Source: Malacoraja senta
Lineage: Eukaryota
DNA: 64,000 nt
Reading direction: 5' to 3'
Assembly: GCA_038087875.1 (NCBI GenBank)
Contig: CM075991.1
Span: forward strand, 682,001-746,000
In this document: in pieces, positions 2,568 through 58,455 of the stretch
Numbering within the stretch: position 1 is the stretch's first letter
How the letters are laid out: every line of letters starts with the position of its first letter
Position numbers and translations under genes: made by a program
Notes under the pieces: model-generated
Seen by the model: the letters and a program-made list of their open reading frames with translations, nothing else
Databases searched by the model: none
What the model was told of the DNA's origin: nothing

Positions 2568-2761
2568 AAGGTAGACACAAAATGCTGGAGTAACACCGGG
2601 ATAGGCAGCTGTTTTGAAGAGAAGGAATGGACGACGTTTCGGGTCGAGACTTCTGAGGAATGGTCTCGACCTGAAACATCACCCATTCCTTCTCTCCAGA
2701 GTTACTCCAGCATTGTGTGTATATCTTCGATTTAAACCAGCATCTGCAGTTCTTTCCGACG
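2568..2761. mobile_element. Short palindromic non-autonomous Penelope-related element inserted in a CR1 fragment
   Basis: 14-bp TSD caatactccaactg at 2554-2567 and 2762-2775. Internal inverted arms are related to the PLE 3' terminus at 14985-15084. Confidence 0.75.
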
Positions 2762-4305: not shown

Positions 4306-6237
4306 GAATTCCCTTGAATGAGTTAACTGAGTTTGAATTCCTCTAGTCGTAGTGGGATTTCAGGACGTTGCTGCTGGTGCAGGCACCCCATAGTCACACT
4401 ATCCTGCCAGCACCAACTGCTGGCATCATGTCAAGTTCCTTCCCTTCAGCCCTCTTTAACATGCCCTCTCCCGTTACCAAGGCTCACCAATATCCCCGAG
4501 TGTTGCTGGGGCAAGACCAACTGTCTGGTGTGTATGATACACATTACCATTGCACTTAAACCTCTTCTAGGCTCTCCTGGGTTTCCTTCCTATCCCTGCC
4601 GTTTGACGTTTGATGGCGTGGCAGGTGTTGAGTTACACATTCACGCTGTCTCCTCTCCAGTTGCAGCCACATCAGAATCACACTCTCTCTCAGATGTCTG
4701 CAATCTATTTGCAGCTGGAAACCAAGGGCAATGATCACAATTTATCATGTTCACTTTGTTTGTATTTTCCAGTTGCCGATGTGATTGTAATGTAACAAAT
4801 CTCTTTTCAGAAGATGTTTGTTTTGACTTCTCTGTGTGTCGACACTACATCTGTAGAAGACGTATATGCTTGGTATAAATGTAAATTGTCCCTTGTGTGT
4901 GTAGGATAGCGTTAATGTGTAGGGATGGCTGGTCGGTGCGGACTCGGTGGGCTGAAGGGCCTGTGTCTGTGCTTTTTGTAAATTAAACTAAATTATAAGA
5001 TGGCTGCATCATTTAAAATGCCATTTCTTAACAGTGTTAATCTTGTTTCCTGTTCAAGGCCTCCCTCCGCAGTGCCCTCTGTCCATGGCCGTGTGGAGCA
5101 GCTGTCCTCACTCAAGGTCAGAGGGACGTGTGGTGGTTCAGATACTCATCTCACGTTACAGTACCACAATCTCCACCAGCGGACGGAGCAGCAAGGCGTC
5201 TGTGTTCTGGGAACCGAGTCAGTGCACAACTGGAAACTCCAGTCACTTCCCCAGCACTTGGCCGGCTGGTGAAATCACCTCAAAGAAGGTCGCAACCCCA
5301 ACCTTCCTCTGTCCATCCCCTCCACAGATGCTGCCTGAGTTACTCCACCATGAGTTACTCCACCATGTGCAAGAAGAATCTGCAGATGCTGCTTTACACC
5401 AAAGATAGACACAACATGCTGATCAGGCAGCATCTCTGGAGAAAAGAAATAGGTGACGTTTCAGGTTGAGACCCTTCTTCAGGGGAACCCGAAACGTCAC
5501 CTATTCCTTTTCTCCAGAGACAGTGCCTGACCCGCTGAGTTACTCCAGCATTTTGTGTCTACGAGTTACTCCAGGAATTTGTGTGTTGCTCCTAATTTTT
5601 ATAAACTTATTTCTATTAAATATTTAAAATTTTCATTGCAAAATATGTAAATAAATGGTTCACAAAGACAATAGTAGTTCTTTACTTATTTACCATCAAT
5701 ATATTTCCATGTTAGAGTTGTCCAGCACGAATACGGGCCCTTCGGCCCTACCTTCCCACACCAACCAATGTGCCCCTTCTGCAGTCCCACCTGCCTGCAT
5801 TTGGCCCATATCCCTCTAAACCTGTCCTATCCATGTTATGATTCTACTGTTTTAGTTTTCACAAGTTCTAAGAGGAAGATGTAGGCCATTTGGCTTATGG
5901 CTACTCTGCCATTCAATCATAGCTGGTCTATCTTTCCCTCTCAACCCCATTCTTCTGCCTTCTCCGCATAGCCCCTGACACCTTAACTAATCAAGCATCT
6001 GTCAATCTCTGCCTTAAAATCATCCACTGATGGCCTCCACAGCCATCTGTGGCAATGAATTCCACAGATTCATCACCCTCTGACTAAAGAAATTCTTTCT
6101 CATCTCTCACTTTAACCTTATTGTCTAAACCAGGGACCTCCAAATGTGTTCTCTAGTTTGTTTTATGTGAGGGGTCGGGGAAAACTTTGTTTCAATCTCT
6201 TATCTTGCCGAAGATGCGATTGTTTTCCGGGTCGTAT

Positions 6238-6792
6238 TGTTGATTCACGTTTTTCTCTCACATCGGTTGTTTCGACAATAATCGACCGGACACCGGGGTT
6301 GCTTTAAACGTACGTTTATTCAACACTGAGTCTTCACACAGGTTAACAACCTAGCAAAGAGTCAAGCTCAATGCCTTAATTTGTAATGCCTTATATACTT
6401 AAAGGCTACAGGTTATGCCTCCCATATTACTGATACAAAGCAACAGACACGAACGCCATGGTCAGGATCACAGGCAAGTACATATTGGGAGGTGTTATTT
6501 AGTGGAACAATACTAGAGATAAGACAGGTACATTCCTCAGACTTCTGAGAGCCACGGTTTGTATATTCCTTAGACTTCTGAGCCAGCTATCTCAGTCAGA
6601 CGGGTACAGTTAATACCATAGTGGCGAATATGGAGTAACAGCAGGACAATGTGAATTTTTCCTGACCCCTGCAGCTACATATTCAGCAACTTTGGTCAGC
6701 AGACATTTTATGTTTCAATCCAGTCCACCTGGCCAAACCATTTTACCTTCACAGAACAATCTTACAGCGTTTATTCAACATTTACATTCACA
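6238..6792 (-). repeat. ERV 3' LTR (555 bp)
   Basis: Direct repeat of 12365-12933. Minus-strand AATAAA at 6315-6320 and TATATAA at 6391-6397. Confidence 0.97.
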
Positions 6793-6804
6793 TTCCCCCC
6801 TTTT
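6793..6804 (-). other. ERV polypurine tract
   Basis: Minus strand reads AAAAGGGGGGAA immediately before the 3' LTR. Confidence 0.92.
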
Positions 6805-6980
6805 GCCATTCTTATGGCAACACTCATAGTCCATTAAAAAGTCCCATTCGCCGAATCTCGTAACTTTCTAGTTCCCTGGCCACGGCCTCTTGGACCGTCC
6901 GACCCTTGTCCCCCAATTCTCCTTCCTCACTCACTTCATCGTCTTCACTGTCGTTGGGGAACGGTAACAGTCTCTCCTGC

Positions 6981-8494
6981 TCACGCTGTAAGATCATCAT
7001 TCGTACAGACTGTATAGCTTCCTCGGGGGTTGGTCCCCAAACATGATAAAGCCGCCATTAATCGGGCTATGATACATTTCACAATGGCGATCCCCACAAA
7101 TAAGCAAGTAACTACTATAGCAGCATAGATGGCCATGCTGATAATCCAGTTGTATAATTCCCCCATCCCTGGTTTTCATTTATTCCATCCAAAAAGGTGG
7201 TAATCTCTTTCTGGTGTTGGGTGATGTTGCTAGTCCTGTCTTGAACCCCCATCATACATTTCCCTTTTATGACGGTACAGGTCCCCCCGTCTCTAGCCAA
7301 TAAGTAATCGAGCGCATATCTATTTTGTAGGGAAAACATCCTCATTTCGGCCATCTGGGTTTTTACTGCCTCCAAGGCTCCAGTTGTTGCATTGCCCAAA
7401 ATTGTCAGGCCTCAAACAAGGTAATTTCGGTTTTTGGCTGCTTCACCTCCACCCACTCCTCCCATTGTTAGCATGCTTAATAATCCCCATCCGATGGCAT
7501 GTCCGTGGGTAGCTCCCCTGACCCCTGGATGTCTCCATTGTGCGCAAAACTCGGCCGACACCGCCCTTCGATGAACCCGAGCCATGGGTTTAGTCCATCG
7601 CTCGGGACAAGGTACCGTGGTTGGCACCAATGCTCCAACTGCCATGTTCTCGGGGAAAGGGGGTTTTAGGACATTGGTTCCTTTCCCCTTAAAGAAGAAG
7701 TAATATCCTTCCTCCGTATATAATGATCCATTACAGCCCCTTCGGGTATTAATGACTTCTCCCCCTCCAGACCAGTCCCTCCACGCTTCACTGATCCGAT
7801 TGCTATAACTGGGGATTGGCAGGTGATGGGATCCTACCGTCAGATGGGTCCCGTTAGCCCATCCACACAACAGCTGAAATCCAGCATTTACAGGGATACA
7901 TTCCTTGGACACCTTACATTGGACTCCTTTATAGGTAAGGTTACATGCGGAGCCGTGAACGGGCCCTTGCAGAGCGCAAGTGAGGTTATTTTTAACATTT
8001 ATGACTATACACCCGTGTCCTTGGTTACTAAAACAATTTTCATATTGCCTGTTGTCATTATTGGTGGTGAAGTTACATGGCCTAGCCGGTGCTCTTGACG
8101 CTGTCCTAGATCCATTATAGCAAATGTCGTAGGAGTGGTTGTTGTTCTTAGGGAGCGGTAAGCAGTTGGCCGGTGGAGCGAGAAGCCCATCATAGCTGAT
8201 GATAACGGGCTTGACAGGGAACGTTTCTTTGTCCTGGCACTTCACCAGTCGTTCAGTTCTGCCCCATGCAGGGGATGGGGTAAACAGGGAGGTAACTGAT
8301 GTCATTCGTGGATAACAAACCACCTGCCCCTTCCCGAATAGCTCGTTGTGTGCCTGGATGAATAAATTGGAGTTTTCTCGTTCCCCTCTCTTTCCTCGTT
8401 TGTTCCGTCCGTATTCAGGCTTTGTCCATTTCCAACCGAAACTGATTAACCCTGCTGTGGTTGCCACACATATTAATGCCACGGAGACCCTCAT
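6981..8494 (-). pseudogene. env: ERV env (SU ORF 7412-8494 open; premature stop, then TM with frameshift)
   Basis: Signal peptide MRVSVALICVATTAGLISFG, Cys-rich SU, RVHRR cleavage-like site and hydrophobic fusion segment. In the same frame after the TGA: ISD LQNRYALDYLLARDGGTC and CX6C. Membrane anchor in shifted frame 6981-7166. Confidence 0.92.
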
Positions 8495-8567
8495 CTTAGC
8501 GATTTATTTCGTATCTGCGAACACAAGGGGAGGGAAAAAGAAAGGAACGTGCAATTTCAAAGCGAAA

Positions 8568-10972
8568 TTAATTCGTACCCTGCTTTTCGTGGACCGGATC
8601 CCCCTCTCTGACCTCGACCTCCCCCCTTTGCTTGGTGTCACCAAGCACTTTACAATGGTGCAAATGCACCCATGCCGATCGTCCTTCTACCTTTACTGCG
8701 GTGGAGGTGGTGAGGAGAACCTGGAAGGGGCCCAACCATCGAGGAGAAAGGGTGTATATACGAACCCAATTCTTAATCAACACATAAGAACCCGGGGTGA
8801 TCGTCCATCAACGGGAAAATCTATGTCACCCACATAAGCGGCCTTGACCTCCCCATGAATCTCACGCAGGGCCCTTGTAAGGGCAAGGACGTAAGAGACC
8901 ATCTCCTCTGTCATATGATGCAATGTCGCTGTGGCCGGGATAATGTCTGTCCAGGGGGTGCGCAGGGGTCGGCCATAGATGATCTCTGCAGGAGACAACC
9001 TTGTCTTCCCTGCTGGAAGGACTCTGATCTGAAACAAGGCAACAGGTAACATTTTAACCCAGGTGGAGCCCGATTGGTCCACCAGCTTGGCAAGCTTGGT
9101 CTTCAGGGTCAGGTTCAAGCGTTCCACCATTCCTGCAGCCTGTGGGCGATAAGCACAATGTAGCCGCTGGGTTACACCCAGCTGTCGGTACAATTCTTTA
9201 TTGATAGCGGCAATAAAGTGAGGGCCGTTATCCCAACTGATGGTGTTTGGAACCCCAAAGCGAGGAACAAACTGCTGTAATAAAATAGACACCACCGTAG
9301 AAGCAGTGCAATCAGTGGTTGGAAAGGCTTCAATCCACCTAGAAAACACATCAACAATAACAAGCACATGTTTATAACACTGACACTTAGGCAAATCAAT
9401 AAAATCCATCTGTAAGGTTTCAAACGGAGCAGTAGGTAATGGAGTACGACCCGTCTGGCAGACAACTCCTTTACCAGGGTTGTGTGCAGCACAGGTGAGG
9501 CACCGTGCACTAGTTTGGGCTGCCAAAACCTTAAGTCGAGGATGCCACCATGCCTGTAAGAGAGCGTCTACTAGCAAGGTGGCCCCACAGTGAGTGGCTA
9601 GATGTAGGCAATCAACAACCCAGGTCGCTAACTGGTCTGTCATACAGGTCTGTCCGGCCGGCGTGAGCCACAATCCAGAGTCAGCCTTCCGACAGCCCAG
9701 CTGCTCCCATTCCATTATTACATCAACAGAGGCATCCCCCTGTAAGTGCAATACATCATTCATGGTTGGCATAGGTTTCTCAGATTCAGACGAGCCCATA
9801 TAAAGGCTTTTCACCTGCCTCATCATACTACCCACCACTTTAAATCTACCGCGTGAAGCACACTTAGCCGCTTCGTCAGCCAACCTGTTACCGATTTGGA
9901 CCGGGGAATCTCCTGTCGTGTGGGCCACACATTTGATTACGGCTACCGCAGAGGGCAGAAGGATAGCATTCAACAGGTCAGTGACCAGGAACTGATTGGA
10001 AATCTTATGGCCCGTCGAGGTGAGGAATCCCCTATTTTTCCATAACTGTCCGAAATCCTGAACGACTCCGAATGCGTATCGGGAGTCGGTGTAAATATTG
10101 ACGGAGAGCCCCTCGGAGTGGACACAGGCTCGGGTGAGGGCAAACAACTCAGCCTGCTGAGCTGAAATCGGTGGGTCAAAACTGCCACAATCCAGCAAGG
10201 TTCCATCTTGCTTAACTACCGCAAAGCCTGACAGATGGCGTCCCTGCTCGTCGATGGACGAACTTCCATCGGTATAGAGGATCAAATCTGGAGAGGCTAG
10301 AGGTTTATCGCTAAGGTCAGGGCGCGGACTGGTATCCGCGAGAATAGCCTCCAAGCAATTATGGTCGCATGGAGCGAGGGGATCAGGAGGAGAGCAGAGA
10401 AACGCAGCAGGGTTGATAGTGGTGCAGTGCCGGAACTGTAGCTTGGGATTATTCAACAGGTAGATCTCATACCTATTTTGTCTGGCTGAAGTCAAATGCT
10501 GGGTCTGGAGCTGTCCCAGTAGGGCGGTCACGGAGTGGGAGGAATATCCAGTAATGTCCTGCTGGAGAGTCAGGTATCATTCCCAACCACTGTCGCATTC
10601 CCCTGGCTGATGTGGGGGGTATGTCCTGTAAATAGGGTCCGTGCGTCTCTCGTCCAACCGACGGCCATCTGCTGAGATTATGATTCCGAGGAATTTCACC
10701 TCCTTTTGTCCGACATGTACTTTGGAGGGGGACACAACGTACCCCAATGCCTTTACAAAGTTCAACAACAAAATTATAGCTTCCCTATTCTGCTCCTCCG
10801 TTTCACTGGCCACTAAAAGTTCATCGATGTACTGGATCAATGCAGACCACTCAGGTAACTGCAGGTTTTGTAATTGCTGTTGCAGACAATGCGAAAATAG
10901 GGTCGGCGAGTTTACAAAGCCCTGTGGCAATCTGGTCCATGTATACTGTAGGGGAGGGATTGAGTTCACCAC
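8568..10972 (-). pseudogene. pol: ERV pol remnant (partial RT, RNase H, integrase)
   Basis: RT LPQGFVNSP and YIDE. RNase H YTDGSS / SAQQAEL / YTDSRY. Integrase HHCC (HLATH..CLTC), QMDFI, WDNGPHF, GMVERLN. The C-terminal GPF module (PRWLGPFQV) is in a shifted frame. Confidence 0.95.
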
Positions 10973-10974
10973 TG

Positions 10975-11810
10975 TGCCATATTCTTTCTGGTTTTGGTCT
11001 GGGGGTTCAGCTTAGTTCTGCCTCCCACGGAGTCGGTAGATTGTAGGGCAGCAGGAGAATACGGAGGAGGTCGGTCTGCTGGAGGGGCACTAGTGGCAAC
11101 TGTCTTCCCTGTGGTCCCCTACTGAATGGGACCGTCTTCTGGGGTTCAGCGAGGTTACAGGAGATTTGGAAACTGGTATCTGTGAAGGGCGAGTTTTAAT
11201 CTTGGATCGGGTAGCGGGAATTGGAGGAGCGGACACGGGACTGGCAACGGGGGCAGAGGGACTGGCAACGGGGGCAGTGGTTCAGCGGGGGTGCTCCACG
11301 GATTCCCCAATGATAATCCTCTACCTCCTCCTCCTCGTCACCTCCCAAATCTATGCCAGCCACCGACTTACGTAAGTCTTTATCTACCTCGGCCTTATTT
11401 TGTCTCTCTCTCTCCTGACGACCCTTACTTTCCTCAGCATGCCTACAGTCCTGTTTTAATACGGTCACCGACTTCTCCTGATCCCCCTCGGTCAGGGGTA
11501 TTCCTAGTTTCAAGGCATTACTCTGCCAACTGGCCGTTAAAGACCGTGCCTTTTCTCCGTTACAATCATCGATCCACAACTGAATGGCCTTTTTATAATT
11601 TATTTTTTTATCCTTTTTCCATATTACACTCTGGGCACTTGATAACACACCCATATCCTTGGAACCCCCTTCAGGCCATTCATCCTTCCCCAGTTTATGA
11701 ATGAGTCCTCCCGACATACGCCTGAAGGTCTCCTCCATTTCTGGATGCAAGAAACATAGCTGATGTAATGGCTGGTCCGGGTGACAACTGGTGTCCATAC
11801 CATTACACAT
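10975..11810 (-). pseudogene. gag: ERV gag N-terminal remnant (MA / Pro-rich region)
   Basis: Positioned between leader and pol. 204-aa ORF 11196-11810, with PSAP (11249-11260) and PPPY (11059-11070) late-domain-like motifs in shifted frames. No CA/NC/PR seen. Confidence 0.7.
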
Positions 11811-12344
11811 TTTTAATACTTATTTTATTACACACCAATAGTTCAGGGTTAACCGTGAGTCCTTGGTTCAGCCGTATCTCACTCGGTCACTTCAATTCCT
11901 GACCTTCGCGTGGAGGATTTCCTCTCTTAACAACCAGACTTTCTGTGACTTAACAAGCAGACTTTCTGTGAGATACGGGGGTACCTTGGTCTCGGTTAAC
12001 GTCTCAATACTTGTCAAACTGACGATTCAATAACCATTACATTCCCATCCTAACCCCAGTGCACTCCTCTTATATACCGTCTACGGTCCCCCTCTACGGG
12101 GTATTTTATCCGCTCGATCAGACTAGGACAATCCTCGAGACGGCCCCATCCCCGTGCCCACAACCGGAACGTTCGGATGTCGTCCCACGGACTGACGCAA
12201 GCCAGCGAATTACCTTGCTACGCCGGGATACGAGGAAGGACCAAGTGGTGATTTAACTAAATCTACTCACTTGGCTGCGCAACCTTCACATCGATCCCGT
12301 CGCCCAGTGGATTCACTCGCCGGCTCGATCAGTCGCTGGTTGAC

Positions 12345-12362
12345 ATCCCACTTCTGACACCA
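12345..12362 (-). other. ERV primer-binding site, tRNA-Leu
   Basis: Minus strand TGGTGTCAGAAGTGGGAT, 2 nt from the 5' LTR; complementary to the 3' end ATCCCACTTCTGACACCA of vertebrate tRNA-Leu(CAA/CAG). Confidence 0.9.
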
Positions 12363-12364
12363 AA

Positions 12365-12933
12365 TGTTGATTCATGTTTTTCTCTCACATCGGTTGTTTC
12401 GACAATAATCGACCGGACACCGGGGTTGCTTTAAACGTACGTTTATTCAGCACTGAGTCTTCACACAGGTTAACAACCTGGCAAAGAGTCAAGCTCAATG
12501 CCTTAATTTGTAATGCCTTATATACTTAAAGGCTACAGGTTATGCCTCCCATATTACTGATACAAAGCAACAGACACGAACGCCATGGTCAGGATCACAG
12601 GCAAGTACATACTGGGAGGTGTTATTTAGTGGAACAATACTAGAGATAAGACAGGTACATTCCTCAGACTTCTGAGAGCCACGGTTTGTATATTCCTTAG
12701 ACTTCTGAGAGCCAGCTATCTCAGTCAGACGGGTACAGTTAATACCATAGTCGCGAATATGGAGTAACAGCAGGACAATGTGAATTTCTCCTGACCACAA
12801 CTTCCTGACCCCTGCAGCTACATATTCAGCAATTTTGGTCAGCAGACATTATGTTTTAATCCAGTCCACCTGGCCAAACCATTTTACCTTCACAGAACAA
12901 TCTTACAGCGTTTATTCAACATTTACATTCATA
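12365..12933 (-). repeat. ERV 5' LTR (569 bp) with TATA box
   Basis: Direct repeat of 6238-6792; TATATAA on the minus strand at 12518-12524. Confidence 0.97.
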
Positions 12934-14019
12934 GTATCTCCGGTCGCTCTGCGTCCTAACATCGTGGAGCTGGTGGCCTTGCTTGAGACTGACTTTGAAC
13001 GGAGGGGCCATGGACTTACCATCGGAGCCTGCGATCCCTTACCTGGGATCGACGCTCCAACCGTGGCCTGCGGATTTCAACATCGACGAGCTCGCAGTCT
13101 CAGGCAGAGTCTGATGTCGGGAAGCTCTAAGCTGGAGTCGAATCGCCTGGCGCAGGGGGAGCTGAGATCCCCCGATGCGGGAGCTTGATGGCCCTGATGC
13201 GGAGGGCTCGACCCCCGGTTGTGGGAGCCAAGATCGCCCCGACCGCCGTGGGAGAACAAAGAAGGGAAGAGATTGAACTTTTTTTGCCTTCCATCACAGT
13301 GATTCATGTGGTAGTCACTGTGGTGGATGTTCATGTTCAAAGGTATTTGGGTGTCTCGTTGCTCTTTATTGGTACGACTGAATTTCACTGTACCTTAATT
13401 GGTACATGTGACAATAAACAAACCTTGAAGTTTAATAAAAATAATTTGCCTTCTCAGTTCCCATAGCAAATCACATAAGTAGCTTCCCGCCGTGAATGGG
13501 CAGCCTGTGTTTTTAACACAATGGTGTCAGATTACAGTAAACTTTGTTTTGAAGACTTGTCGTATATTGAATTAACTAGCTGCAACCCCAGTTCCCTTTC
13601 TCTGACAAACTTTCCTATCTTGGAAATTCTTTAAAGAATTTGTGGGAGAATTTTCATAGTTAGATTTCCATAAATCAGGTGGTCCGTAACAAGCCCCTGG
13701 TAGGAGCCCCTACATCTCACGCCAGGGACGCTACGGCATTAGAATAGCACAGATGGACAGGGCACCCATGTCACACAACACCTTGTACACTAAACTCTTA
13801 GAAACATAGAAAATAGGTGCAGGAGGAGGCCATTCGGCCCTTCGAGCCAGCACCGCCATTCTGTGATCATGGCTGATCGTCCCCTATCAATAACCCGTGC
13901 CTGCCTTCTCCCCATATCCCTTGACTCCACTAGCCCCTAGAGCTCTATCTAACTATCTTAAATCCATCCAGTGACTTGGCCTCCACTGCCCTCTGTGGCA
14001 GGGAATTCCATAAATTCAC

Positions 14020-15084
14020 TATCTGGACTACAGTTCTTCCCACCCTGCTTCCTGTAAGGACTCCATCCCCCACTCCCAATTCCTCCGTCTATGCCGCATC
14101 TGCTCCCAGGATGAGGCGTTCCACACCAGGGCATCCGAAATGTCCTCATTCTTCAGGGAACGGGGGTTCCCCTCCTCCACCATAGATGAGGCTCGCACCA
14201 GGGTCTCTGCCATACCCCGCAACACTGCTCTCTCTCCCCATCCCCTCACTCACAACAAGGGCAGAGTTCCCCTAGTCCTCACCTTTCACCCCACCAGCCG
14301 TCACATACAACAAGTGATCCTCCGTCAGTTTCGCCACCTCCAACGTGACCCCACCACTCGCCACATCTTCCCATCTCCCCCCATGTCTGCCTTCCGCAAA
14401 GACCGCTCCCTCCGTAACTCCCTTGTCAATTCTTCCCTTCCCTCCCGTACCACCCCCTCCCCTGGTACTTTCCCTTGCAACCGCAAGAGATGCAACACTT
14501 GTCCCTTCACCTCCCCCCTCGACTCTATTCAAGGACCTAAGCAGTCGTTCCAGGTGCGACAAGAGGTTCACCTGCATCTCCTCCAACCTCATCTATTGCA
14601 TCTGCTGCTCTAGATGCCAGCTGATCTACATCGGTGAGACCAAGCGGCGGCTTGGCGATCGTTTCGCCGAACACCTCCGGTCGGTCCGCAATAACCAACC
14701 TGACCTCCCGGTGGCTCAGCACTTCAACTCCCCCTCCCATTCTGTATCTGACCTCTCTGTCCTGGGTCTCCATGGCCACAGCGAGCAACACCGGAAATTG
14801 GAGGAAATGCACCTCATATTCCGCTTGGGCAGTCTACATCATGGTGGCCTGAACATTGAATTCTCCCAATTCTGCTAGCCCTTGCTGTCCCCTCCCCTTC
14901 ATCAGCCATCTGGTTGTCTCCTCCCCTCCCCCAGCCTTCGGGCTCCTCCTCCGCCTTTTTTCCTTTCTTTTTCCCCACCCCCTATCAGTCTGAAGAAGGG
15001 TTTTGGCCCGAAACGTTGCCTATTTCCTTCGCTCCATAGATGCTGCTGCACCCGCTGAGTTTCTCCAGCATTTTATTGTGTGCC
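14020..15084 (+). mobile_element. 5'-truncated Penelope-like retroelement (RT thumb, linker, GIY-YIG endonuclease, 3' terminal region)
   Basis: ORFs 14140-14613 (FRERGFPS..RVPLVLTFHP..CNRKRCNTC) and 14345-14878 (FTCISSNLIYCICC..IYIGETKRRLGDRFAEH..GLN), joined by a frameshift. 14-bp TSD at 14006-14019 and 15085-15098. Confidence 0.92.
14986..15020 (+). ncRNA. Minimal hammerhead-ribozyme-like motif in the PLE 3' region
   Basis: CTGAAGA-A-GGG(ttttgg)CCC-GAAAC-GTT: both conserved HHR boxes, a stem II and an NUH triplet. Stem I is only ~2 bp. Confidence 0.55.
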
Positions 15085-15289
15085 TTCCATAAATTCACAA
15101 CTCTCTGGGTGAAAAAGTTTTTTTCTCACCTCAGTCTAAAATGACCTCCCCTTTATTCTAAGACTGTGGCCCCTGGTTCTGGACTCGCCCAACATTGGGA
15201 ACATTTTTCCTGCATCTAGCTTGTCCAGTCCTTTTATAATTTTATATGTTTCTATAAAATTATAAAAATCTTCAGTTCATAAGTAGTAG

Positions 15290-15711: not shown

Positions 15712-15885
15712 TGTTCGGGGGAAGGAATGGGTGACGTTTCCGGTCGAGCACCTTCAGTCTGGAGAAGGGTCTCGACCCAAAAGTCACCTTTTCCTTCTCT
15801 CCAGAGATGCTGCCTGTCCTGCTGAGTTACTCCAGCTTTTTGTGTCTATCTTCGGTTTAAACCAGCATCTGCAGTTCCTTCCTAC
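15712..15885. mobile_element. Short palindromic Penelope-related element
   Basis: 10-bp TSD acatgaatac at 15702-15711 and 15886-15895; contains a degenerate HHR-like core cagtctggagaagggtctcgaccc. Confidence 0.75.
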
Positions 15886-19964: not shown

Positions 19965-21610
19965 TATAGACAATAGACTATAGGTGCAGCAGTAGGCCAT
20001 TCAGCCCTTCGAGCTAGCACCACCATTCAATGTGATCTTGGCTGATCATCCCCAATCAGTACCCCATTCCTGCCTTCTCCCCATATCCCCTGACTCCGCT
20101 ATTTTTAAGAGCCCTATCTAGCTCTCTCTTGAAAGCATCCAGAGAACCTGCCTCCACCGCCCTCTGAGGCAGAGAATTCCACAGACTCACCACTCTCTGT
20201 GAGAAAAAGTGTTTTCTCGTCTCCGTTCTAAATGGCTTACTCCTTATTCTTAAACTGTGGCCCCTGGTTCTGGACTCCCCCAACATCAGGAACATGTTTC
20301 CTGCCTCTAGCGTGTCCAAACCCTTAACAATCTTATATGATTCAATGAGATTCCCTCGCATCCTTCTAAACTCCAGAGTGTACAAGCTCAGCTGCTCCAT
20401 TCTCTCAGCATATGACAGTCTCGCCATCCCGGGAATTAACCTTGTAAACCTACGCTGCACTCCTTCAATAGCAAGAATGTCCTTCCTCAAATTAGGGGAC
20501 CATATGCACACAATATTCCAGGTGTGGTCTCACCAGGGCTCTGTACAACTGCAGAAGGACCTCTTTGCTCCTATATTCAATTCCTCTTGTTATAAAGGCC
20601 AACATGCCATTCGCTTTCTTCACTGCCTGCTGTACCTGCATGCTTACTTTCATAGACTGATGAACAAGGACCCCCAGATCCCGTTGTACTTCCCCTTTCC
20701 CCAACTTGACGCCACTTAGATAGTAATCTGCCTTCCTGTTTTTGCTACCATAGTGGATAACCTCACATTTATCTGCATTAAACTTCATCTGCCATGCATC
20801 TGCCCACTCCCCCAACCTGTCCAAGTCACCCTGCATTCTCATAGCATCCTCCTCACAGTTCACACTGCCACCCAGCTTTGTGTCATCTGCAAATTTGCTA
20901 ATGTTACTTTGAATCCCTTCATCCAAATCATTGATGTATATTGTAAATAGCTGCCGTCCCAGCACCGAGCCTTCCGGTACCACACTAGTCACTGCCTGCC
21001 ATTCTGAACGGGACCCTTTAATCCCTACTCCTTGTTTCCTGTCCGCCAACCAATTTTCTATCCATGTCAGCACTCTACCCCCAATACCATGTGCCTTAAT
21101 TTTGCACAATAATCTATGTGGGACCTTATCAAATGCTTTCTGAAAGTCCAGGTACGTTATATCCACTGGCTCTCCCTTGTCCATTTTCCTAGTTACATCC
21201 TCAAAAAATTCCTGAAGATTAGTCAAGCATGATTTCCCCTTCGTAAATCCATGTTGAGACAGACCGATCCTGTTACTGCTGTCCAAATGTGCGGCTATTT
21301 AATCTTTTATAATTGACTCCAGCATCTTCCCCACCGATGTCAGGCTAACTGGTCTATAATTCCCTGTTTTGTCGCTCCCGCCTTTTTTAAAAAGTGGGAT
21401 AACATTAGCTACCCTCCAATCCACAGGAACTGATCCCGAGTCCTGAGAACATTGGAAAATTATCACCAATGCATCCACGATTTCTAGAGCCACTTCCTTA
21501 AGTACCCTGGGATGCAGACCATCAGGCCCTGGGGATTTATCAGCCTTCAGTCCCATCAGTCTATCCAACACCATTTCCTGCCTAATGTGGATTTCCTTCA
21601 GTTCCTCCCT
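19965..21610 (-). mobile_element. 5'-truncated CR1 LINE (~1.6 kb, frameshifted ORF2)
   Basis: ORFs 21299-21574 (KSPGPDG, NYRPVSLTS), 20492-21286 (DFQKAFD, FADD) and 20056-20511, plus 3'UTR with tattgtc-type tail. Confidence 0.95.
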
Positions 21611-22260: not shown

Positions 22261-22379
22261 TTTGTCGGGGCTGTTGGTGAAGTGTGGGGCGGGGGGTGGG
22301 TGTGAGGGGGAACAGGGGAGGTGAAGGGGATACTGGGTGGGGGGTGGTAGTGGGGGTGAGGAGGTGGTTGGGGGGGGGG

Positions 22380-22950
22380 GTTGTGGGGAGGGCGGGGTTG
22401 GTGTGTTGGGGGTATGATTGTATGGGGAGGGCAGGTTGTGGGGGTGAGGATTGTCTGGGGAGGGCAGGTTGTGGGGGTGAGGATTGTCTGGGGAGGGCAG
22501 GTTGTGGGGGTGAGGATTGTCTGGGGAGGGCAGGTTGTGGGGGTGAGGAGGTGGTTGGGGGGAGGATTGTATGGGGAGGGCAGGTTGTGGGGGTATGATT
22601 GTATGGGGAGGGCAGGTTGTGGGGGTGAGGTGGTTGGGGGTATGATTATATGGGGAGGGCAGGTTGTGGGGGTGAGGATTGTCTGGGGGGGGCAGGTTGT
22701 GGGGGTGAGGATTGTCTGGGGAGGGCAGGTTGTGGGGGTGAGGATTGTCTGGGGAGGGCAGGTTGTGGGGGTGAGGAGGTGGTTGGGGGGAGGATTGTCT
22801 GGGGAGGGCAGGTTGTGGGGTGAGGATTGTCTGGGGAGGGCAGGTTGTGGGGGGAGGATTGTCTGGGGAGGGCAGGTTGTGGGGTGAGGATTGTCTGGGG
22901 AGGGCAGGTTGTGGGGGTATGATTGTATGGGGAGGGCAGGTTGTGGGGGG
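22380..22950 (+). repeat. G-rich 33-bp minisatellite in intron 1
   Basis: About 15 variant copies of ggggagggcaggttgtgggggtgaggattgtct. Confidence 0.95.
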
Positions 22951-23357
22951 TGAGGAGGGAGCGTTGGTGGATGAGGGTGGGGTGAACAGGTCCAGCTCTG
23001 ACTGCCTGCTCTGGTCAGTGCTGGCCACTATGAGGGAGGGGCAGGGGTATGCTGCACACCCATGAAGTTCTCTCCAATGACAATTTTATTCATTGCATTT
23101 GTCCCCCACCCCTTTGGCTTTCTACAGCCAGTCGCATCCCAGGTTTGCAGGGAGGTTGCATTTGTTTTCCGTGCTATATTGTGGGTAGGAAGCAATCCTT
23201 GCTCATTCACTTCCTCGCTCGCCCCCCCCTCCTTGCCCCAATAACCCTGTTGCTGTTTCTGCACTATAACATGACTGTCTACTCTTCTCTCCCACCCCCA
23301 GCTGCCCTTGCCCCTCTCCAGGGATTTGCCTGCCTGCTGCTTCCACCAAGTGCAGCC

Positions 23358-24236
23358 ATGCCTGTGGATTTTGCCCGACGTCTCTGCCTGAATCATTCCC
23401 CTCCGCTTCACAGCTTGCTGAGCTGCCAGGAGTTCCGAGGTGTGTGCAAACCCAGGCTGAAGCCCATGCGTTCCTGCTTGCATCTTCGAAACAAGGTGGG
23501 AGAGGGGTGGGCAGCCAACCCCCGGGGCTGTGTGGACAAAAAGAAAGTGGTTTTTGCAGATGCGAAGGGTTTCTCGCTCACTGCTGTCCGCATGTTCTCC
23601 GAGACGGAGGACGATCTGTCGGACCTCCAGTTCGAGCTCTCGGACCTGGCCGACTGCGACCCACAACCCGCCAAGAAGGAGGAGCTGCCCCTCAACTTCC
23701 ACCTGCCCGCAACGGATTATTTAAGCTTCCGTTCTCGTTTGCAAGAAAACTTTGTCTGCCTCGAAGACTGTGTGGTCCAAGAGAAGTTCATTTCTGGAAC
23801 GGTCAAAGTGAAGAATCTCAGCTATGAGAAGAAGGTTATGGTCAGGATCACCTTTGACTCGTGGAAAATCTTCCATGACGTTGAGTGTGCGTACTTGAAC
23901 AATGTGTACGGCAGCACGGACACGGACACATTCTGTTTTCAGATCCACCTGCCCGATCATCTCCAAACTCGGGAGAAGATAGAGTTCTGTGTCTCGTTCC
24001 AGTGTGGCCAAGATACCTTCTGGGACAACAACAATGAGGAGAACTATAGAATTCCCAGTGTGGCCTGGCCCCTGGCTGTGGGGACAGCTCGCTGCATGGA
24101 CGACTGCGCTCACTACAACAGCCGAGGGCTGGCACAGGAGGTGGATGTGGAGCGGTTCGGCAGTCCCCGCTCTGCTGACACCATGTTCTCCCAATGGCAG
24201 AGCTGGGGCTGGTTCAATGCTACTGCCCACTGGTGA
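23358..24236 (+). CDS. PPP1R3C: Protein phosphatase 1 regulatory subunit 3C-like (PTG family, CBM21 domain), 292 aa
   Basis: MPVDFARRLCLNHSPP, RVxF motif KKVVFAD, CBM21 (VKVKNLSYEKKVMVRITFDSW, WDNNNEENY) and C-terminal FGSPR..WQSWG, as in PPP1R3C. Kozak GCAGCCATG at 23358; acceptor ..cccctctccag at 23321. Ortholog versus paralog is unresolved. Confidence 0.9.
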   Translation: MPVDFARRLCLNHSPPLHSLLSCQEFRGVCKPRLKPMRSCLHLRNKVGEGWAANPRGCVDKKKVVFADAKGFSLTAVRMFSETEDDLSDLQFELSDLADCDPQPAKKEELPLNFHLPATDYLSFRSRLQENFVCLEDCVVQEKFISGTVKVKNLSYEKKVMVRITFDSWKIFHDVECAYLNNVYGSTDTDTFCFQIHLPDHLQTREKIEFCVSFQCGQDTFWDNNNEENYRIPSVAWPLAVGTARCMDDCAHYNSRGLAQEVDVERFGSPRSADTMFSQWQSWGWFNATAHW

Positions 24237-28340: not shown

Positions 28341-30579
28341 GTCCCAAAACATAGTGGTCTTGGCCAGTAGAGTGAAGACGAGCTGAGACCCTGCCATTGC
28401 CCAATATTCGCATTAACTCCTGACAATGGCAATGAGCAGTATCTGCTGAAGCTAGCATGTCACTGAGACGTTGCCTGTTACTAGTGACAAGGTAAGACAC
28501 AAAGTGCTGGTGTAACTCAGCATCTCTGGAGAGAAGGAATAGTGGCATTTTGTGCCGAGACCCTTCTTCAGACTAGTCAGAGAAATGGAAACGAGAGGCA
28601 TCGGCCATGATGTAGAAAGACATAGAACAAATGAATGAAAGATATGCAAAAAAGTAACAACGATAAAGGAAGGGTCTTGACCTGAAACGTCACCCATTCC
28701 TTCTCTCCAGAGATGCTGAGTTACGCCAGCTTTTTGTGTCTTTCTAAGGAAACAGTTGTTGCCTTCCACTTTTGGGTGGTATTTGAGCAGCAGTCTTTCA
28801 CTGGTTCCCTTTGGAACTCAGCGGTGAATCCCAGCACTCCCTGCTGTGCCACCTCAGCACATGCTCCGTGATCCAAGCACTGCAATAAATTCCGACCTGG
28901 ACCATCCTTTTCCCACTGAGTTACTCCAGCATTTTGCGTCTATCCTTCACCTGGTGCCGTGCTGCAACGGTGATTGGCAGAAGAGACATTCCTTGGATAA
29001 TTGCATGTTGCTTTTGTTTGCTGCAAGTGGCTCTGTCGCTAATAATTAGGCCTACAGTGGAATATGCAATGAATGGATCACATGCAGGCAGAGGAGTTGG
29101 TTTAACTTGGCATCATGTTCAGCATGGATTTTGAGGGCCAAAAGGCCTGTTCCTGTGCTGTACTGTTCTATACAAAGTACTGGAGTAATTCTGGGTCAGG
29201 CAGCATCACTGGAGGACAAAGGTCGATGATGTTTCATGTCATGCCCTTCCTCAGGTTGTCTGAATCGGGGTCCTGAGCTGAAACCTTATCTATCTATTCC
29301 CTCCACAGATGCTGCCTGACTGCTGAGCTACTCCAGTCCTTTGTTTTACCCTAAATTCCAGCAGCTACAGATCCTTGTGTCTATGTAATAATGCAAACTG
29401 AGGGGGAACCTCATTGACACTCGCTGAATAGTGAAAGGCCTGGATAATGTGGAGAGGATGATTCCATTAGTGGGAGAGTCTAGGACCAGAGGCTATAGCC
29501 TCAGAATTTGTGGAATTCCCTGCCACAGAGGGCAGTGGAGGCCAAATCACTGGATGGATTTAGGAGAGAGTTAGATAGAGCTCTAGGGGCGAGTGGAATC
29601 AAGGGATATGGGGAGAAGGCAGGCATGGGTTATTGATTGGGGACGATCAGCCATGATCACAATGAATGGTGGCTCAAAGGGCCGAATGGCCTCCTCCTGC
29701 ACCTATTTTCTATGTTTCTAATAAACAGATGTACCTTTTTAGAAAGAAGAGAAGGAATTTCTTTAGTCAGAGGGATAGGAATAGGAATATTTTATTGTCA
29801 CATGTGGTTAGGCACAGTGAAATTCTTTGCTTGCGTACCCAATGTATACAAATAGCCGGCTACCCCTTTTGTTCCCCCACGCCAGGTCCCCATTTTCCTT
29901 TTTTCTCACCTCCCTCAGGGCAGTCCCCCCACAGGCTGGGTCCTCCATTGTTCTTCCTTCCCCCACACGGTGGTTCCCCCACGCTGTCGTTGACTGCGGG
30001 TAGACCCGCGAGGCTTCACCGCTGCCGCTGCCCAACTTGACGCCTCCATGGTGTCGACCCGGGCCCCAGCCACAGCTCTGTCGGCCGCTCCGCTGACCCA
30101 GGCTTCTATGCAGCAATCTGGGAGGCATGGATGATGGAGGCCACGTTCCCAGTTCACAGCCTTGGCCCGATGGGAGGGTGGTGAATTTGTGGAATTCATT
30201 GCATCAGACAGTGAAGGAGGCCAAAGCAATGCATATTTATAAGGTGTAGATTGACAGGTTCTTGATTTGTACAGAGGTTATGGGAGCAGGGCAGGAGAAT
30301 GGGGTTAGGAGGGAGAGATAGATCAGCCATGATTGAATGGCGGAGTAGACTTGATGAGCCAAATGGACTAATTCTGCTCCTAGAGCTTATGAAAATGCTG
30401 CCAATCGCTCACCACAGATGCTGGTTTACACCAAAGATAGACATAAAAAGCTGGAGTAACTCAGCGGGACAGAGAGAAGGAATGGGTGACGTTTGTCCCA
30501 GTTTGTCTTGTATTTTAACTCGGGTTTGCAGCATCTGCGTGTCTTGCTGATTTTCTTCTCTCTCTCTCGCTTCTCGGTG

Positions 30580-42463: not shown

Positions 42464-42898
42464 TATCAACTCGCAAGCGAATGAGCCCAGAAGGAAAAAT
42501 CTCTCTGCTTTTAATAAAGTTACAACTGAATATTATTCTTCCAAACTTGCAGGCGCTAGCTGCCTCTTTCTTTAAAAAAGTCGTTGAGTAGCTGGTCACA
42601 TTTCCTCAGTGAAACCCTCCATCACCACGCACCTGACCATCCTGTCTCCCCTCACCACGAGCTTTCTGCCATTTCAGCACCCTGACAGTATCGTGTATGT
42701 ATCATTCCCACGGTATTGCCCCTCCAGTGGTGGGAAGCTGCCTGCCTGTTCACTGTGAATTCTGGCAGCCATTTTGCTTCACTCTCTCAGTGTCAGGCTG
42801 GATCATGTCCTGAAATGTCTGGTGAAACGCTGAGTCTCACAGGGTGCTATTCATTGAGGTACAGCTGACTTCAGGAAAGAGAGCAGTTATGTCCCAAA

Positions 42899-43314
42899 TA
42901 ACCAACGGTCCGCAATAACCAACCTGAACTCCCGGTGGCTCAGCACTTCAACTCCCCCTCCCATTCCGTATCTGACCTCTCTGTCCTGGGTCTCCTCCAT
43001 GGCCACAGCGAGCAACACCGTAAATTGGAGGAAATGCACCTCATATTCCGCTTGGGCAGTCTACACCCTGGTGGCCTGAACGTTGAATTCTCCCAATTCT
43101 GCTAGCCCTGGCTGTCCCCTCCCCTTCATCAGCCATCTGGTTGTCTCCTCCCCTCCCCCAACCCTCGGGCTCCTCCTCCTCCTTTTCCTTTTTTCCTTTC
43201 TTCTCCCCACCCCCTATCAGTCTGAAGAAGGGTTTCGGCCCGAAACGTTACCTATTTCCTTCGCTCCATAGATGCTGCTGCACCCGCTGAGTTTCTCCAG
43301 CATTTTTGTGTACC
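42899..43314 (+). mobile_element. Penelope-like element 3' fragment
   Basis: Near-identical to 14680-15084; 11-bp TSD tatgtcccaaa at 42888-42898 and 43315-43325; HHR-like core at 43222-43249. Confidence 0.92.
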
Positions 43315-44027
43315 TATGTCCCAAACATGTCAATATTACAAAAGAAGAGGTGTTGGCAGTCGTGATGTATAAAGCTGGATACATCTACGAGCATGATCAA
43401 ATGTACACTGGGGCGTTGTTGGAAGCAAGGGAAGACATTTCTGAGAGAAGACACAGAGTGCTGGAGTAACTCAGTGGGTCAGGCAGCATCTCTGGAGAAT
43501 GTGGATAGGTGACGTTTCAGATCAGGACCCTTCTTCAGACTGATAGTGATGGGAGGCGGAGAAAGGTAGAAGAGAGGAGGGGGCAGAGCAAACCCTGGCA
43601 ATTGATGGGTGAGGGGGTTGGGTTGGTTTGATAGGCAGACAGTTGGACAAGAGCCAGAGATGAAAAGCCAGAAGGTGTGAGACAAAAGGATTGAAGTGAT
43701 GTGAATTGTGCAGTTAGAGGAAGGAATGTAGGTGTAGAAATAAGTAGCTAGAGGTAGGAGTGTAGAAATAGCTGCAAGTCTTGGTGGGGCATTGCGGATT
43801 GGGTGCGGGGGGAGAAAGAAGAGGGCGGGGTTATATGGGGGAAGAAGGGAGAGAGTTCTGAGACCTAGGCAGAGATGGCTAGATCATCCTTGGCTATGGA
43901 TGAGGTGCCAGAGGACTGGAAGGTAGCTGATGTGACTTAATTTAAGAAAAGCTGCAGAAACAGGGGAACTGGGCTGGTGGCGCCTAACATTAGTGGTGGG
44001 AAGATTACTGGAGAGGATTCTGAGACG

Positions 44028-45000: not shown

Positions 45001-45403
45001 ATCCAGATGCATTTGGAAACGAAGGGCCGATTAAGGTTAATCAGCATGGTTTTATGTGTGAGAAATCGTGTCTCACAAATCTAATTGAGTTTGAAGAGGC
45101 AAATAAGAGGATTAATGAGTGTAGGGTGGTTGGTGTATTCATATGGACTTCAGCAAGGCTTTTGACAAGGTCCTGCTTGGCAGACCATGTGAGGACCAGG
45201 TGAACTAGCCAGTTGGATACAAAATTGTGGCAAGAAACAAACTGTGGGGGGAATTCAGCAGCTGAAGCAGCTTCTGTGGGCTGAAGGGATTGCTGATGTT
45301 TTGGGCCGAGGCTGTGTGTCAGGATTCCTGATGTAGATGATTCCTGACCTGTGATGATTGTGATTCCTGAATTGGCTTGGTGAAAGGAGTCAGAGTAGTG
45401 GAG

Positions 45404-45497
45404 GGTACACAAAAATGCTGGAGAAACTCAGCGGGTGCAGCAGCATCTATGGAGCGAAGGAAATAGGTAACGTTTCGGGCCGAAACCCTTCTTCAGA
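45404..45497 (-). mobile_element. ~94-bp Penelope 3'-terminal fragment inserted in a CR1 remnant
   Basis: Reverse complement of 43221-43314; TSD cagagtagtggag(ggt) at 45391 and 45498. Confidence 0.9.
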
Positions 45498-46073
45498 CAG
45501 AGTAGTGGAGGGTTGTTTTTCAGTTGGAGGTCTGTGACCAGGGAATGGCATGGGTCCCTTGCTATTTAACATCGATCACAGAACAGTACAGTACATCACA
45601 GGAGCAGGTCTTTCAGCCCACAATGTCTGTGCTGAACATGATGCCATGATAAACTGATCTCATCTGCCTGCACATGATCCATATCCTTCCATTCCCTACA
45701 TATCCATGTGCCTATCCAAAAGTTTCTTAACTGCCACCATCTACCAGCACCACCATCCCTGGCAGCACATTGCTGACACTCGCTGTCCTCTGCAAAATTA
45801 AATTGCCCCATTCATTTCCTTTAAAGTTAGCCCCTGTTACCTTAAAGCTATGTCATGAAAATTAGCAATTTGGGTGTGAATCTAGGGCGCACGATGCGTA
45901 AGTTTGAGGATATCAACAAAGCTGGTGGTGTGGTGGTTAGAAAGCAAAGTCGTCTAAAGTTACAACAAGGTCTGGAGCAACTGGGAAAGTGGGCAAAGGA
46001 ATGGCAGATAGAATTTAACTTGCAGAAAGTTGGAAACGATGCCGTTTGGGAAATTAAAACAAGGCATGACTTA

Positions 46074-51373: not shown

Positions 51374-51572
51374 AGAAAAAAGGAACTGCAGATGCTGCTT
51401 TACACACAAGGACACAAAGTGCTGGTGTGACTCTGCGTGTCAGGCAGCATCTCTGGAGAACATGGATGCGTGACGTTTCAGGTCGGGACCCTTCCACAGA
51501 CCTGAAACATCACATCCATTTTCTCCAGAGATGCTGCCTAATCTGCTGAGTTACTCCAGCACTGTGTGTCCC
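51374..51572. mobile_element. Short palindromic Penelope-related element
   Basis: 13-bp TSD ctcatcatagtgt at 51361-51373 and 51573-51585; inverted arms. Confidence 0.8.
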
Positions 51573-58214: not shown

Positions 58215-58455
58215 AAAAAAGACACATCGTGCTGAAGTAACTCAGTGGGTCGGGCAGCATCTCTGGAGAACACGGATAGGTGATATTTCGGGTCGGGACC
58301 CTTCCACGGAAGTCTCTCCTTCAGTCTGAAGAAGGATCCCGACCTGAACGTCACCCATTCCTTCTCTCCAGAGATGCTGCCTGACCCACTGAGTTACTCC
58401 AGCATTTTGTGTCCACTTTTGATTTAACCCAGCATCTGCGGTTCTTTCCTACACA
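58215..58455. mobile_element. Palindromic Penelope-related element
   Basis: Inverted arms around cagtctgaagaaggatcccgacctgaacgtcaccc. Confidence 0.7.

What the first reader, a model, noticed from the sequence alone, without database searches (positions are those of the whole stretch)
14020..15084. Penelope-like retroelement family carrying a hammerhead-ribozyme-like core at its 3' end
Seen: three closely related copies (14020-15084 +, 42899-43314 +, 45404-45497 -) end at the same point (..ttgtgt[a/g]cc). They have clean TSDs of 14, 11 and 13(-16) bp. All contain CTGAAGA-A-GGG-N6-CCC-GAAAC-GTT (14990-15017, 43222-43249, 45469-45496 on -). Established: these are the two hammerhead catalytic boxes (CUGANGA, GAAA) with stem II and an NUH site, and PLEs are known to carry minimal type I hammerheads with palindromic helix III (ACGU here) that can cleave as dimers. 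Inference: a recently active PLE family that uses ribozyme processing. Caveat: helix I is only ~2 bp.
Basis: partly seen in the sequence, partly recalled or inferred. Interest (0 to 1): 0.75.

Follow-up and report, generated by a model that had tools for sequence, protein, structure and literature searches.

The report
Penelope retroelement with minimal hammerhead ribozyme
These three repeats are shortened copies of a Penelope-type jumping gene in what is likely a ray or skate; they carry the known tiny hammerhead ribozyme motif of such elements, but every copy spans the predicted cut site, so the ribozyme likely does not make their shared end, and the find is mostly ordinary.

Summary
Observation confirmed: three close copies (94-100% alike) share a 3' end, have exact 14, 11 and 13-16 bp target-site duplications, and carry CUGAAGA-A-GGGU-UUCG-GCCC-GAA-ACGU-U. 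Copy 1 holds a frameshifted C-terminal piece (CX4CxxC linker, GIY-YIG) of a Neptune-type Penelope-like element; it has no RT core. The motif fits the published minimal PLE hammerhead (PMC4209133): extra base at 9/10.1, G10.1-C11.1, palindromic ACGU, 2-bp helix I. Across thousands of copies in public runs, common non-CpG changes fall only in loop 2, at H17 or keep a pair; the core changes only by CpG decay. 'Uses ribozyme processing' is not supported for these insertions. The predicted cut (15017/15018) lies 67 nt inside the shared end, all three copies span it, none of 35 related hits starts there, and no RNA ends pile up there. This matches the anole PLE, which inserts from uncut RNA. Folding models favour an inactive hairpin; cleavage is untested. 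Side result: copy 5' ends pile up 2-3 nt before CUGA, likely the RNA's start or a splice-acceptor block; other notes of this scan report the same. New member of a known kind.

The parts
14006..14019 (+). left target-site duplication of copy 1 (14 bp)
   Evidence: exact repeat of 15085-15098
14020..15084 (+). copy 1: 5'-truncated Penelope-like element (1065 bp)
14020..14878 (+). C-terminal ORF remnant (post-RT region, Zn-finger-like linker, GIY-YIG) with a frameshift between about 14556 and 14567; stop at 14876-14878
   Evidence: matches residues 615-887 of the 889-aa RT+EN protein P0025 in two frames; 68% identical to Mobula P0001
14476..14502 (+). CX4CxxC linker (Neptune/Nematis-type Zn-finger-like motif)
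   Evidence: translation; motif named as the clade mark in PMC8557442
14588..14689 (+). GIY-YIG endonuclease motif
   Evidence: Pfam PF01541, 23.1 bits, cut-off 22.6
14945..14988 (+). polypyrimidine tract ending in CAG (splice-acceptor-like; 93% pyrimidine)
   Evidence: sequence; role inferred from D. virilis Penelope, whose intron ends at helix I (PMC4209133)
14985..14991 (+). TCAGTCT, initiator-like; 5' ends of genomic copies peak at 14987-14988
   Evidence: loose ends at 43219/43220 in copy-2 coordinates and 14987/14988; Inr consensus recalled
14988..15019 (+). minimal type I hammerhead of copy 1: 2-bp helix I, CUGAAGA 14990-14996, extra A, helix II 14998-15009, GAA, ACGU, H17 = U15017; predicted cut 15017/15018
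   Evidence: fits the consensus of PMC4209133 Fig. S3
15040..15071 (+). predicted hairpin (AUGCUG...CAGCAU) just before the common 3' end, shared by young and old copies; candidate RT-start signal (inferred)
15085..15098 (+). right target-site duplication of copy 1
42888..42898 (+). left TSD of copy 2 (11 bp)
42899..43314 (+). copy 2 (416 bp; ORF end, 3' UTR, hammerhead 43220-43251)
43315..43325 (+). right TSD of copy 2
45391..45406 (-). 3' TSD of copy 3 (16 bp, 3 bp shared with the element end)
45404..45497 (-). copy 3 (94 bp); begins at U2.1, one base before CUGA; hammerhead 45467-45498
45498..45513 (-). 5' TSD of copy 3
2571..2761 (.). older head-to-head pair of short copies, junction inside the hammerhead, tail at one end, 17-bp TSD (1 mismatch)
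51374..51572 (.). older head-to-head pair, junction in the hammerhead, tail at one end, exact 13-bp TSD
15715..15885 (.). older inverted pair with tail, 13-bp TSD (1 mismatch)
5363..5562 (.). older head-to-head pair, tail at one end
58228..58450 (.). older head-to-head pair, tail at one end (outer ends approximate)
29196..29380 (.). older, diverged head-to-head pair (outer ends approximate)
43456..43550 (-). older copy that still meets the hammerhead descriptor (core at 43538)

Best explanation
The three repeats are 5'-truncated, target-site-duplicated insertions of an endonuclease-bearing (Neptune-type) Penelope-like retroelement whose end repeat holds the known minimal type I hammerhead motif, and they were likely copied from RNA that was not cut at that motif. 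Shown: element type, TSDs, motif, copies spanning the cut site, structure-compatible variation. Inferred from the anole element PAc: the element's protein nicks the target and starts reverse transcription inside the RNA, about 67 nt past the predicted cut (or about 35-40 nt further, giving the optional 'tail'), which is why all copies end at one point. Copying stops at varying distances upstream, most often just before the CUGA box. Inferred from PMC4209133: the motif has no helix III of its own and can only form an active core when two copies pair through ACGU, as in tandem transcripts, probably with help from the element's protein. Its likely job is to trim long tandem or read-through RNAs of the master element. 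Single dispersed copies such as these are likely inert and decay by CpG mutation.
For: Protein: GIY-YIG above the Pfam cut-off. 16 relatives of the 181-aa piece, 15 named from rays and sharks, best 68%. Collinear with 800-950-aa RT+EN proteins, 48 of 49 of which have the CX2-5CxxC linker. Architecture: TSDs; a tail in 7 of 24 window copies, at one end of inverted pairs, as drawn in PMC8557442. Motif: matches the min-HHR consensus, and 2-bp helix I is listed for Culex, Drosophila and Oikopleura. Variation (4 runs, all 23 rows at 6% or more shown): no row at 43219-43233 (helix I 5' strand, CUGAAGA, extra A, GGGU), 43239-40, 43243-45, 43248 or 43251-52. The five non-CpG changes inside the 32-nt motif are two loop-2 bases, U.G to U-A at 10.4-11.4 (29-50%), H17 U to C (9-53%) and U-A to U.G at 2.1-1.1 (53-83%). 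Locus L001 from another animal has C-G at 10.4-11.4. Uncut template: all three copies span 15017/15018; 0 of 35 hits start within +26..+32 of C3; no pile-up of RNA ends. PAc precedent: RT starts at 111-118 of the ORF, HHR cut at 26, HHR mutants insert normally, cleavage needs protein.
Against: No cleavage was measured. No Rfam hammerhead family is hit (0 of 13 matches in the window; 0 of 4 in the 181-nt region). ViennaRNA gives helix II a probability of 0.002 or less in the 72-nt context of all three copies. In copy 2 an alternative GUUUCG/CGAAAC hairpin hides the GAAA box (-5.9 vs -3.2 kcal/mol), and the best dimer is a non-catalytic duplex (-24.6 vs -8.9 for the nested part of the active dimer). 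No two-sided compensatory change was seen among the ray-type copies. The downstream hairpin block is also shared by young and old copies, so conservation is not unique to the ribozyme, and read laying favours reads with few changes. The RNA libraries (polyA, oligo-dT, single-cell; 1-6% of each run read) come from other organisms or samples and are poor at showing 5'-OH or cyclic-phosphate ends. No full-length or tandem master copy was available, and no RT tree was built.
Confidence: 0.8

Rival explanations
1. The motif is hammerhead-derived but no longer catalytic in this young subfamily; it is kept as a pairing or protein-binding signal, or as part of the promoter/5' UTR.
For: Folding favours inactive hairpins and duplexes. 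Helix I is 2 bp, in most copies with a U.G pair next to the cut. H17 is U, a slower site than GUC (recalled). No RNA ends at the cut. PMC4209133 itself allows 'functions other than self-cleavage'.
Against: All catalytic positions, including two CpGs that decay in 5-16% of inserted copies, stay the majority base in all 4 runs. H17 moves only between U and C. PAc, with a similar minimal motif, cleaves once protein is added.
Confidence: 0.2
2. One reading: ribozyme cleavage processes the transposition template and explains the shared end of the copies.
For: The motif lies near the common 3' end; the circular-RNA model of PMC4209133 gives cleavage a role in replication.
Against: The shared end is 67 nt past the cut, and copies hold both sides. 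0 of 35 hits start at the cut. No head-to-tail units bounded by the motif appear among the 27 tandem-repeat rows. PAc inserts from uncut RNA. Cleavage followed by re-ligation into a circle is not excluded.
Confidence: 0.07
3. The many 90-135 nt copies are a separate non-autonomous hammerhead SINE or retrozyme family, not truncations of the PLE.
For: The hammerhead-plus-end block is about 25-35 times deeper than the bases just upstream (run X24: 289 at 43213-15, 7,155 at 43219-21, 10,558 at 43243-45). Retrozymes are reported in one chondrichthyan and derive from PLE repeats (bioRxiv 10.64898/2026.07.22.740005).
Against: Copy 3 (94 nt) is identical to the end of ORF-bearing copy 2. Short copies show the PLE tail and inverted pairs, and their 5' ends vary from -11 to +22. 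No tandem arrays of whole units were seen.
Confidence: 0.08
4. The resemblance to a hammerhead is chance.
For: The motif is short, helix I is 2 bp, and Rfam gives no hit.
Against: 5 hits vs 0.05 expected; it sits where PLE hammerheads sit and has the three features that were not in the original descriptor; variation respects the structure.
Confidence: 0.02

Closest known systems
Minimal type I hammerheads (min-HHR) of metazoan Penelope-like elements (Cervera & de la Pena 2014, PMC4209133; main text parts 1-2 of 4 and supplement parts 1-2 of 3 read)
   Same: CUGANGA + one extra base, G10.1-C11.1, GAAA, palindromic 15.2-16.2, NUH, pyrimidine/U-rich 5' flank; in the end repeat of PLEs; most copies single and truncated; pairs on opposite strands; 2-bp helix I in Culex, Drosophila and Oikopleura
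   Different: No cartilaginous fish in Table S1 or the Fig. S3 rows read; here helix II is short (4 bp), and the young subfamily has a competing hairpin that hides GAAA
Neptune clade of endonuclease-bearing PLEs (PMC8557442; passages read)
   Same: C-terminal GIY-YIG, CX2-5CxxC linker, 5' truncation, inverted truncated partner, optional 30-40 bp tail, HHR near the 3' end
   Different: RT core, full ORF and tandem pLTR structure are not present in this window; clade rests on the linker and on relatives, not on a tree
PAc (Poseidon) of Anolis carolinensis (Frangieh et al. 2024, PMC11167929; parts 1-2 of 4 read)
   Same: Hammerhead upstream of the insertion end; two end points a tail apart; no RNA reads ending at the cut
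   Different: Poseidon clade; the PAc ORF starts inside the HHR, whereas no reading frame shared by young and old copies was evident here (by eye)
Non-LTR retrozymes (bioRxiv 10.64898/2026.07.22.740005; parts 1-2 of 5 and passages read)
   Same: PLE-derived, type I HHR, reported in one chondrichthyan genome
   Different: Defined as tandem repeats with an HHR in each unit; the copies here are dispersed monomers or head-to-head pairs

Membership tests
EN+ Penelope-like element | C-terminal GIY-YIG endonuclease | tested here: met
   Pfam PF01541 above cut-off; aligns to the C-terminus of RT+EN proteins
EN+ Penelope-like element | PLE-type RT in the same ORF | tested here: inconclusive
   RT core is cut off in all copies; relatives 61-62% identical over the shared part (P0002, P0009) carry RVT_1
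EN+ Penelope-like element | 5' truncation, TSDs, inverted partner, optional 30-40 bp tail | tested here: met
   TSDs; tail in 7 of 24 copies, 6 inverted pairs; reads continue into a tail past 15074
EN+ Penelope-like element | tandem or partial-tandem arrangement forming pLTRs | not testable with these tools
   no genome held; no such copy in the window
Neptune clade | CX2-5CxxC linker between RT and EN | tested here: met
   CX4CxxC at 14476-14502; 48 of 49 long relatives have it; shared with Nematis
Neptune clade | placement in the RT phylogeny | not tested
   no clade-labelled reference proteins came from the tools; RT core absent from the window
minimal type I hammerhead of PLEs | core CUGANGA and GAAA, NUH | tested here: met
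   no change at 6% or more apart from CpG decay at G12 and U/C at H17
minimal type I hammerhead of PLEs | extra base at 9/10.1, G10.1-C11.1, palindromic 15.2-16.2 | tested here: met
   A14997, G14998-C15009, ACGU against the consensus
minimal type I hammerhead of PLEs | helices I and II supported by covariation | tested here: inconclusive
   one-sided pair-keeping changes at 10.4-11.4 and 2.1-1.1; C-G at 10.4-11.4 in one outside locus; energy models do not favour the fold
minimal type I hammerhead of PLEs | self-cleavage as a dimer | not testable with these tools
   needs a bench assay; no RNA end pile-up in 3 runs
Rfam hammerhead families | covariance-model score | tested here: not met
   no hammerhead match at E up to 5 in the window or E up to 10 in 43150-43330
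non-LTR retrozyme | tandem units each with an HHR | tested here: not met
   none among 27 tandem-repeat rows in the window; rest of genome not testable

The most novel reading that the evidence does not exclude
The element replicates by an LTR-like 'run off and jump' route. Transcription starts at the A of TCAGTCT (14987), three bases before CUGA. RT starts about 100-135 nt into the RNA and runs off its 5' end, and that short cDNA, inserted alone or as a head-to-head pair joined through the hammerhead's palindromes, makes the huge class of hammerhead stubs. In a unit transcript the two hammerheads pair through ACGU and the downstream one is cut, leaving a 31-nt terminal redundancy (14987-15017) that lets the cDNA jump to the RNA's 3' end and copy the ORF. 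The ribozyme would then build an R region rather than liberate the template.
Probability: 0.15. Interest if true: 0.6.

Novelty: new member of a known kind. Interest (0 to 1): 0.22.

Why it matters
Its use is as a test bed for an open question, what PLE hammerheads do. Here thousands of copies give family-level variation that fits the structure, and copy boundaries that avoid the cut site but pile up at the motif's 5' edge. If that edge is the RNA's start, the replication route of PLEs becomes directly testable with 5'-end sequencing.

Tried and rejected
Whole-genome consensus and tandem/master search: no genome is held. Rfam: no hammerhead hit. Pattern scans outside animals: 1 match in metagenome contigs (L001), 0 in viral contigs, too few for a covariation model, so none was built. 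A longer helix I: upstream CUAU could pair with downstream AUAG (CUCU/AGAG in one older copy), but the copy at 43538 breaks it and other subfamilies differ upstream; not claimed. Cleavage after the upstream AUC (which would give a 5' end at 14987): rejected, since helices I and III would have one pair each. An ATG frame over the 3' end as ORF start: by eye not open in the same frame in young and old copies. Pfam found nothing in 14020-14502. The Lunse et al. paper on PLE hammerhead dimers is not held; I saw only its citation and a review's summary (PMC6765202 passages). Literature searches for a report on sharks or rays: 'Penelope+hammerhead+shark' (4 papers; the one relevant paper uses 'shark' only for the shape), 'Penelope+skate+transposable element+SINE' (2), 'Penelope+elasmobranch+repeat' (8), listings only. 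For the 5'-edge pile-up or a strong-stop model: searches (7 papers; 1), listings only, none on point by title. The library lacks most subscription journals and Repbase, so this is not proof of absence; the retrozyme preprint's supplements could not be seen and may list this family. Eleven of the 35 nhmmer hits (E above 0.02 or starting after model position 50) were left out of the 24-copy alignment but kept in the cut-site count.

Full report
Observation. Their flanking repeats are exact: 14, 11 and 16 bp, the last sharing 3 bases with the element end. Copy 1 is 93.7% identical to copy 2 over 412 nt, and copies 2 and 3 are identical over 94 nt. All carry the motif. A minimal type I descriptor finds 5 sites in the window against 0.05 in matched random sequence (40 runs). 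The window also holds about 20 older short relatives; together they cover about 3.4% of it.

The element. Copy 1 encodes, in two frames broken near 14556-14567, the last 270 or so residues of an RT+endonuclease protein. It has a CX4CxxC linker and a GIY-YIG motif (Pfam 23.1 bits, cut-off 22.6). Of 16 relatives found for the first frame, 15 are named from rays and sharks (best 68%), so the host is likely a ray or skate (inferred). Searching with one relative's RT region gave 1,626 proteins, 120 listed; 48 of the 49 fetched proteins of 780 aa or more have the same linker. PMC8557442 names this linker as the mark of Neptune and Nematis (passages). The RT catalytic motif of P0025 is at residue 539 and the match to copy 1 begins at 615, so no RT core is in the window and no tree was built. 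PLE architecture is visible in the older copies. Six are head-to-head pairs, three of them inside 13-17 bp TSDs, and 7 of 24 copies have a tail of about 35-40 nt.

The motif. In copy 1: G14988-U14989 (helix I), CUGAAGA 14990-14996, an extra A, helix II 14998-15009, G12-A14, ACGU, H17 = U15017, then G-C closing helix I. This matches the consensus of Cervera and de la Pena, including the three features they list as not imposed by their descriptor, and 2-bp helices I are in their alignment. They report such motifs in Neptune, Poseidon and Xena elements of fishes, with no cleavage as monomers and low cleavage as dimers. No cartilaginous fish is in their Table S1 or the Fig. S3 rows I read; a 2026 preprint finds HHR tandem repeats and PLEs in one chondrichthyan. 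Rfam has no matching model.

Conservation test. I laid two contig sets and two raw RNA runs on 43204-43275 at 80% likeness; all 23 differences at 6% or more were listed. None falls in 43219-43233, 43239-40, 43243-45, 43248 or 43251-52. Inside the 32-nt motif the five non-CpG changes are two loop-2 bases, U.G to U-A at the top of helix II (29-50%), H17 U to C (9-53%) and U-A to U.G in helix I (53-83%). The other six are CpG transitions (3-16%), including G12, as expected for neutral decay after insertion. Subfamilies part ways just outside the motif (loose ends at 43216/7 and 43255/6). One locus from another animal has C-G at the top of helix II (L001). Limits: there is no two-sided change among ray-type copies; laying favours well-matching reads; the hairpin block downstream is shared too; the runs are from related organisms whose identity is coded.

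Against a processing role in these insertions. The predicted cut is 67 nt inside the shared end, and all copies keep both sides. None of 35 related hits begins within 3 nt of it. Three RNA runs show no place where many molecules begin or end, though these libraries are weak for such ends. Energy models put helix II at a probability of 0.002 or less in the 72-nt context, and favour a hairpin or duplex that hides GAAA; they ignore Mg2+, tertiary contacts and protein. The anole element PAc behaves the same way: RT starts inside the RNA at two sites a tail apart, 85-92 nt past the cut; HHR mutants insert normally; cleavage needs the protein; and no RNA-seq reads end at the cut. I therefore read the shared end as the RT start (inferred by analogy), and the ribozyme as a latent, dimer- and protein-dependent cutter of the master element's long RNAs (inferred, untested).

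Side result: where copies begin. Depth in run X24 rises from 289 (43213-15) to 7,155 (43219-21) and 10,558 (43243-45). Loose ends with near-random flanks (agreement 0.31-0.39) fall at 43219 and 43220 in 3,135 of 10,592 laid reads in X24 and 1,251 of 5,185 in X21, and in both contig sets (533 and 702 contigs). Loose ends at 43216/7 mostly continue in pyrimidine tracts and are older subfamilies. Only a few loose-end rows per run are shown, so the full profile is not known. Copy 3 is a clean case: its TSD abuts U2.1. In the window, 21 of 24 copies align from between -11 and +22 relative to C3, two of which look by eye to continue in a different pyrimidine tract. This spot is at once the 5' edge of helix I, an initiator-like TCAGTCT (consensus recalled; Inr-like motifs in pLTRs are noted in PMC3846280, passages) and a pyrimidine tract plus CAG (93-95% pyrimidine). 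In D. virilis the intron ends at helix I and transcription starts 46 bp before that intron (PMC2377424, passages), which argues for the acceptor reading by homology. I put the pile-up as real at about 0.8, an RNA start at about 0.45 and an acceptor-linked stop at about 0.3. I reached this reading (note) before seeing that eight unreviewed or AI-written notes of this scan report the same pile-up in other genomes; they are leads, not support for the mechanism. Single truncated motifs, opposite-strand pairs and palindromes at inverted junctions are already in print; my searches found no paper on the base-level boundary (listings only).

Verdict. It is a new member of a known kind. The processing claim is not supported for these copies, and catalysis is untested. 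Interest 0.22.

Noticed in passing
window 6238-12931: Provirus-like LTR element: two LTRs about 550-570 bp, 95.6% alike with gaps (first 300 bp 99%); on the minus strand gag-like, RT pieces, RNase H + integrase (8777-10576, Pfam hits) and an env-like frame (7412-8503, no Pfam hit). The pol region is in several frames..
   Followed up: partly
window 23034-24236 +: Single 400-codon frame with a CBM21 domain, like a glycogen-targeting PP1 regulatory subunit (PPP1R3 family; name recalled)..
   Followed up: partly
window about 30970-31140 +: Likely first coding exon of a membrane protein that resembles GPAT3/GPAT4 (name recalled, not tested), after a GC-rich stretch; copies 2 and 3 may lie in its introns..
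   Followed up: no
window 38870-39078: Head-to-head arrays of a 31-bp unit taken from the last part of the PLE end (2.5 and 4 copies), inside a 9-bp direct repeat with a tail at the left; may reflect repeated re-priming at the RT start..
   Followed up: partly
window 42899-42905: Seven extra bases at the 5' junction of copy 2 that repeat a 7-mer 10 nt downstream, suggesting slippage during joining..
   Followed up: no
window 43216-43221 (14984-14989 in copy 1): Pile-up of 5' ends of genomic copies just before the CUGA box, peaking 2-3 nt upstream..
   Followed up: partly
window 22328-22956: G-rich 33-bp tandem array nested in a 228-bp period, just upstream of the CBM21 frame..
   Followed up: no
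L001 1501-1531 (-) and about 1745-1772 (-): A near-identical hammerhead (C-G at the top of helix II, GUC site) with unrelated flanks in an animal-like metagenome contig, and a second degraded core about 240 nt upstream..
   Followed up: partly
window 3327-4322, 20492-21298, 36885-38216 and others: Many CR1/L2-type LINE fragments (RVT_1 hit for 3330-4322; family name recalled); copy 1 is inserted in the 3' part of one..
   Followed up: no
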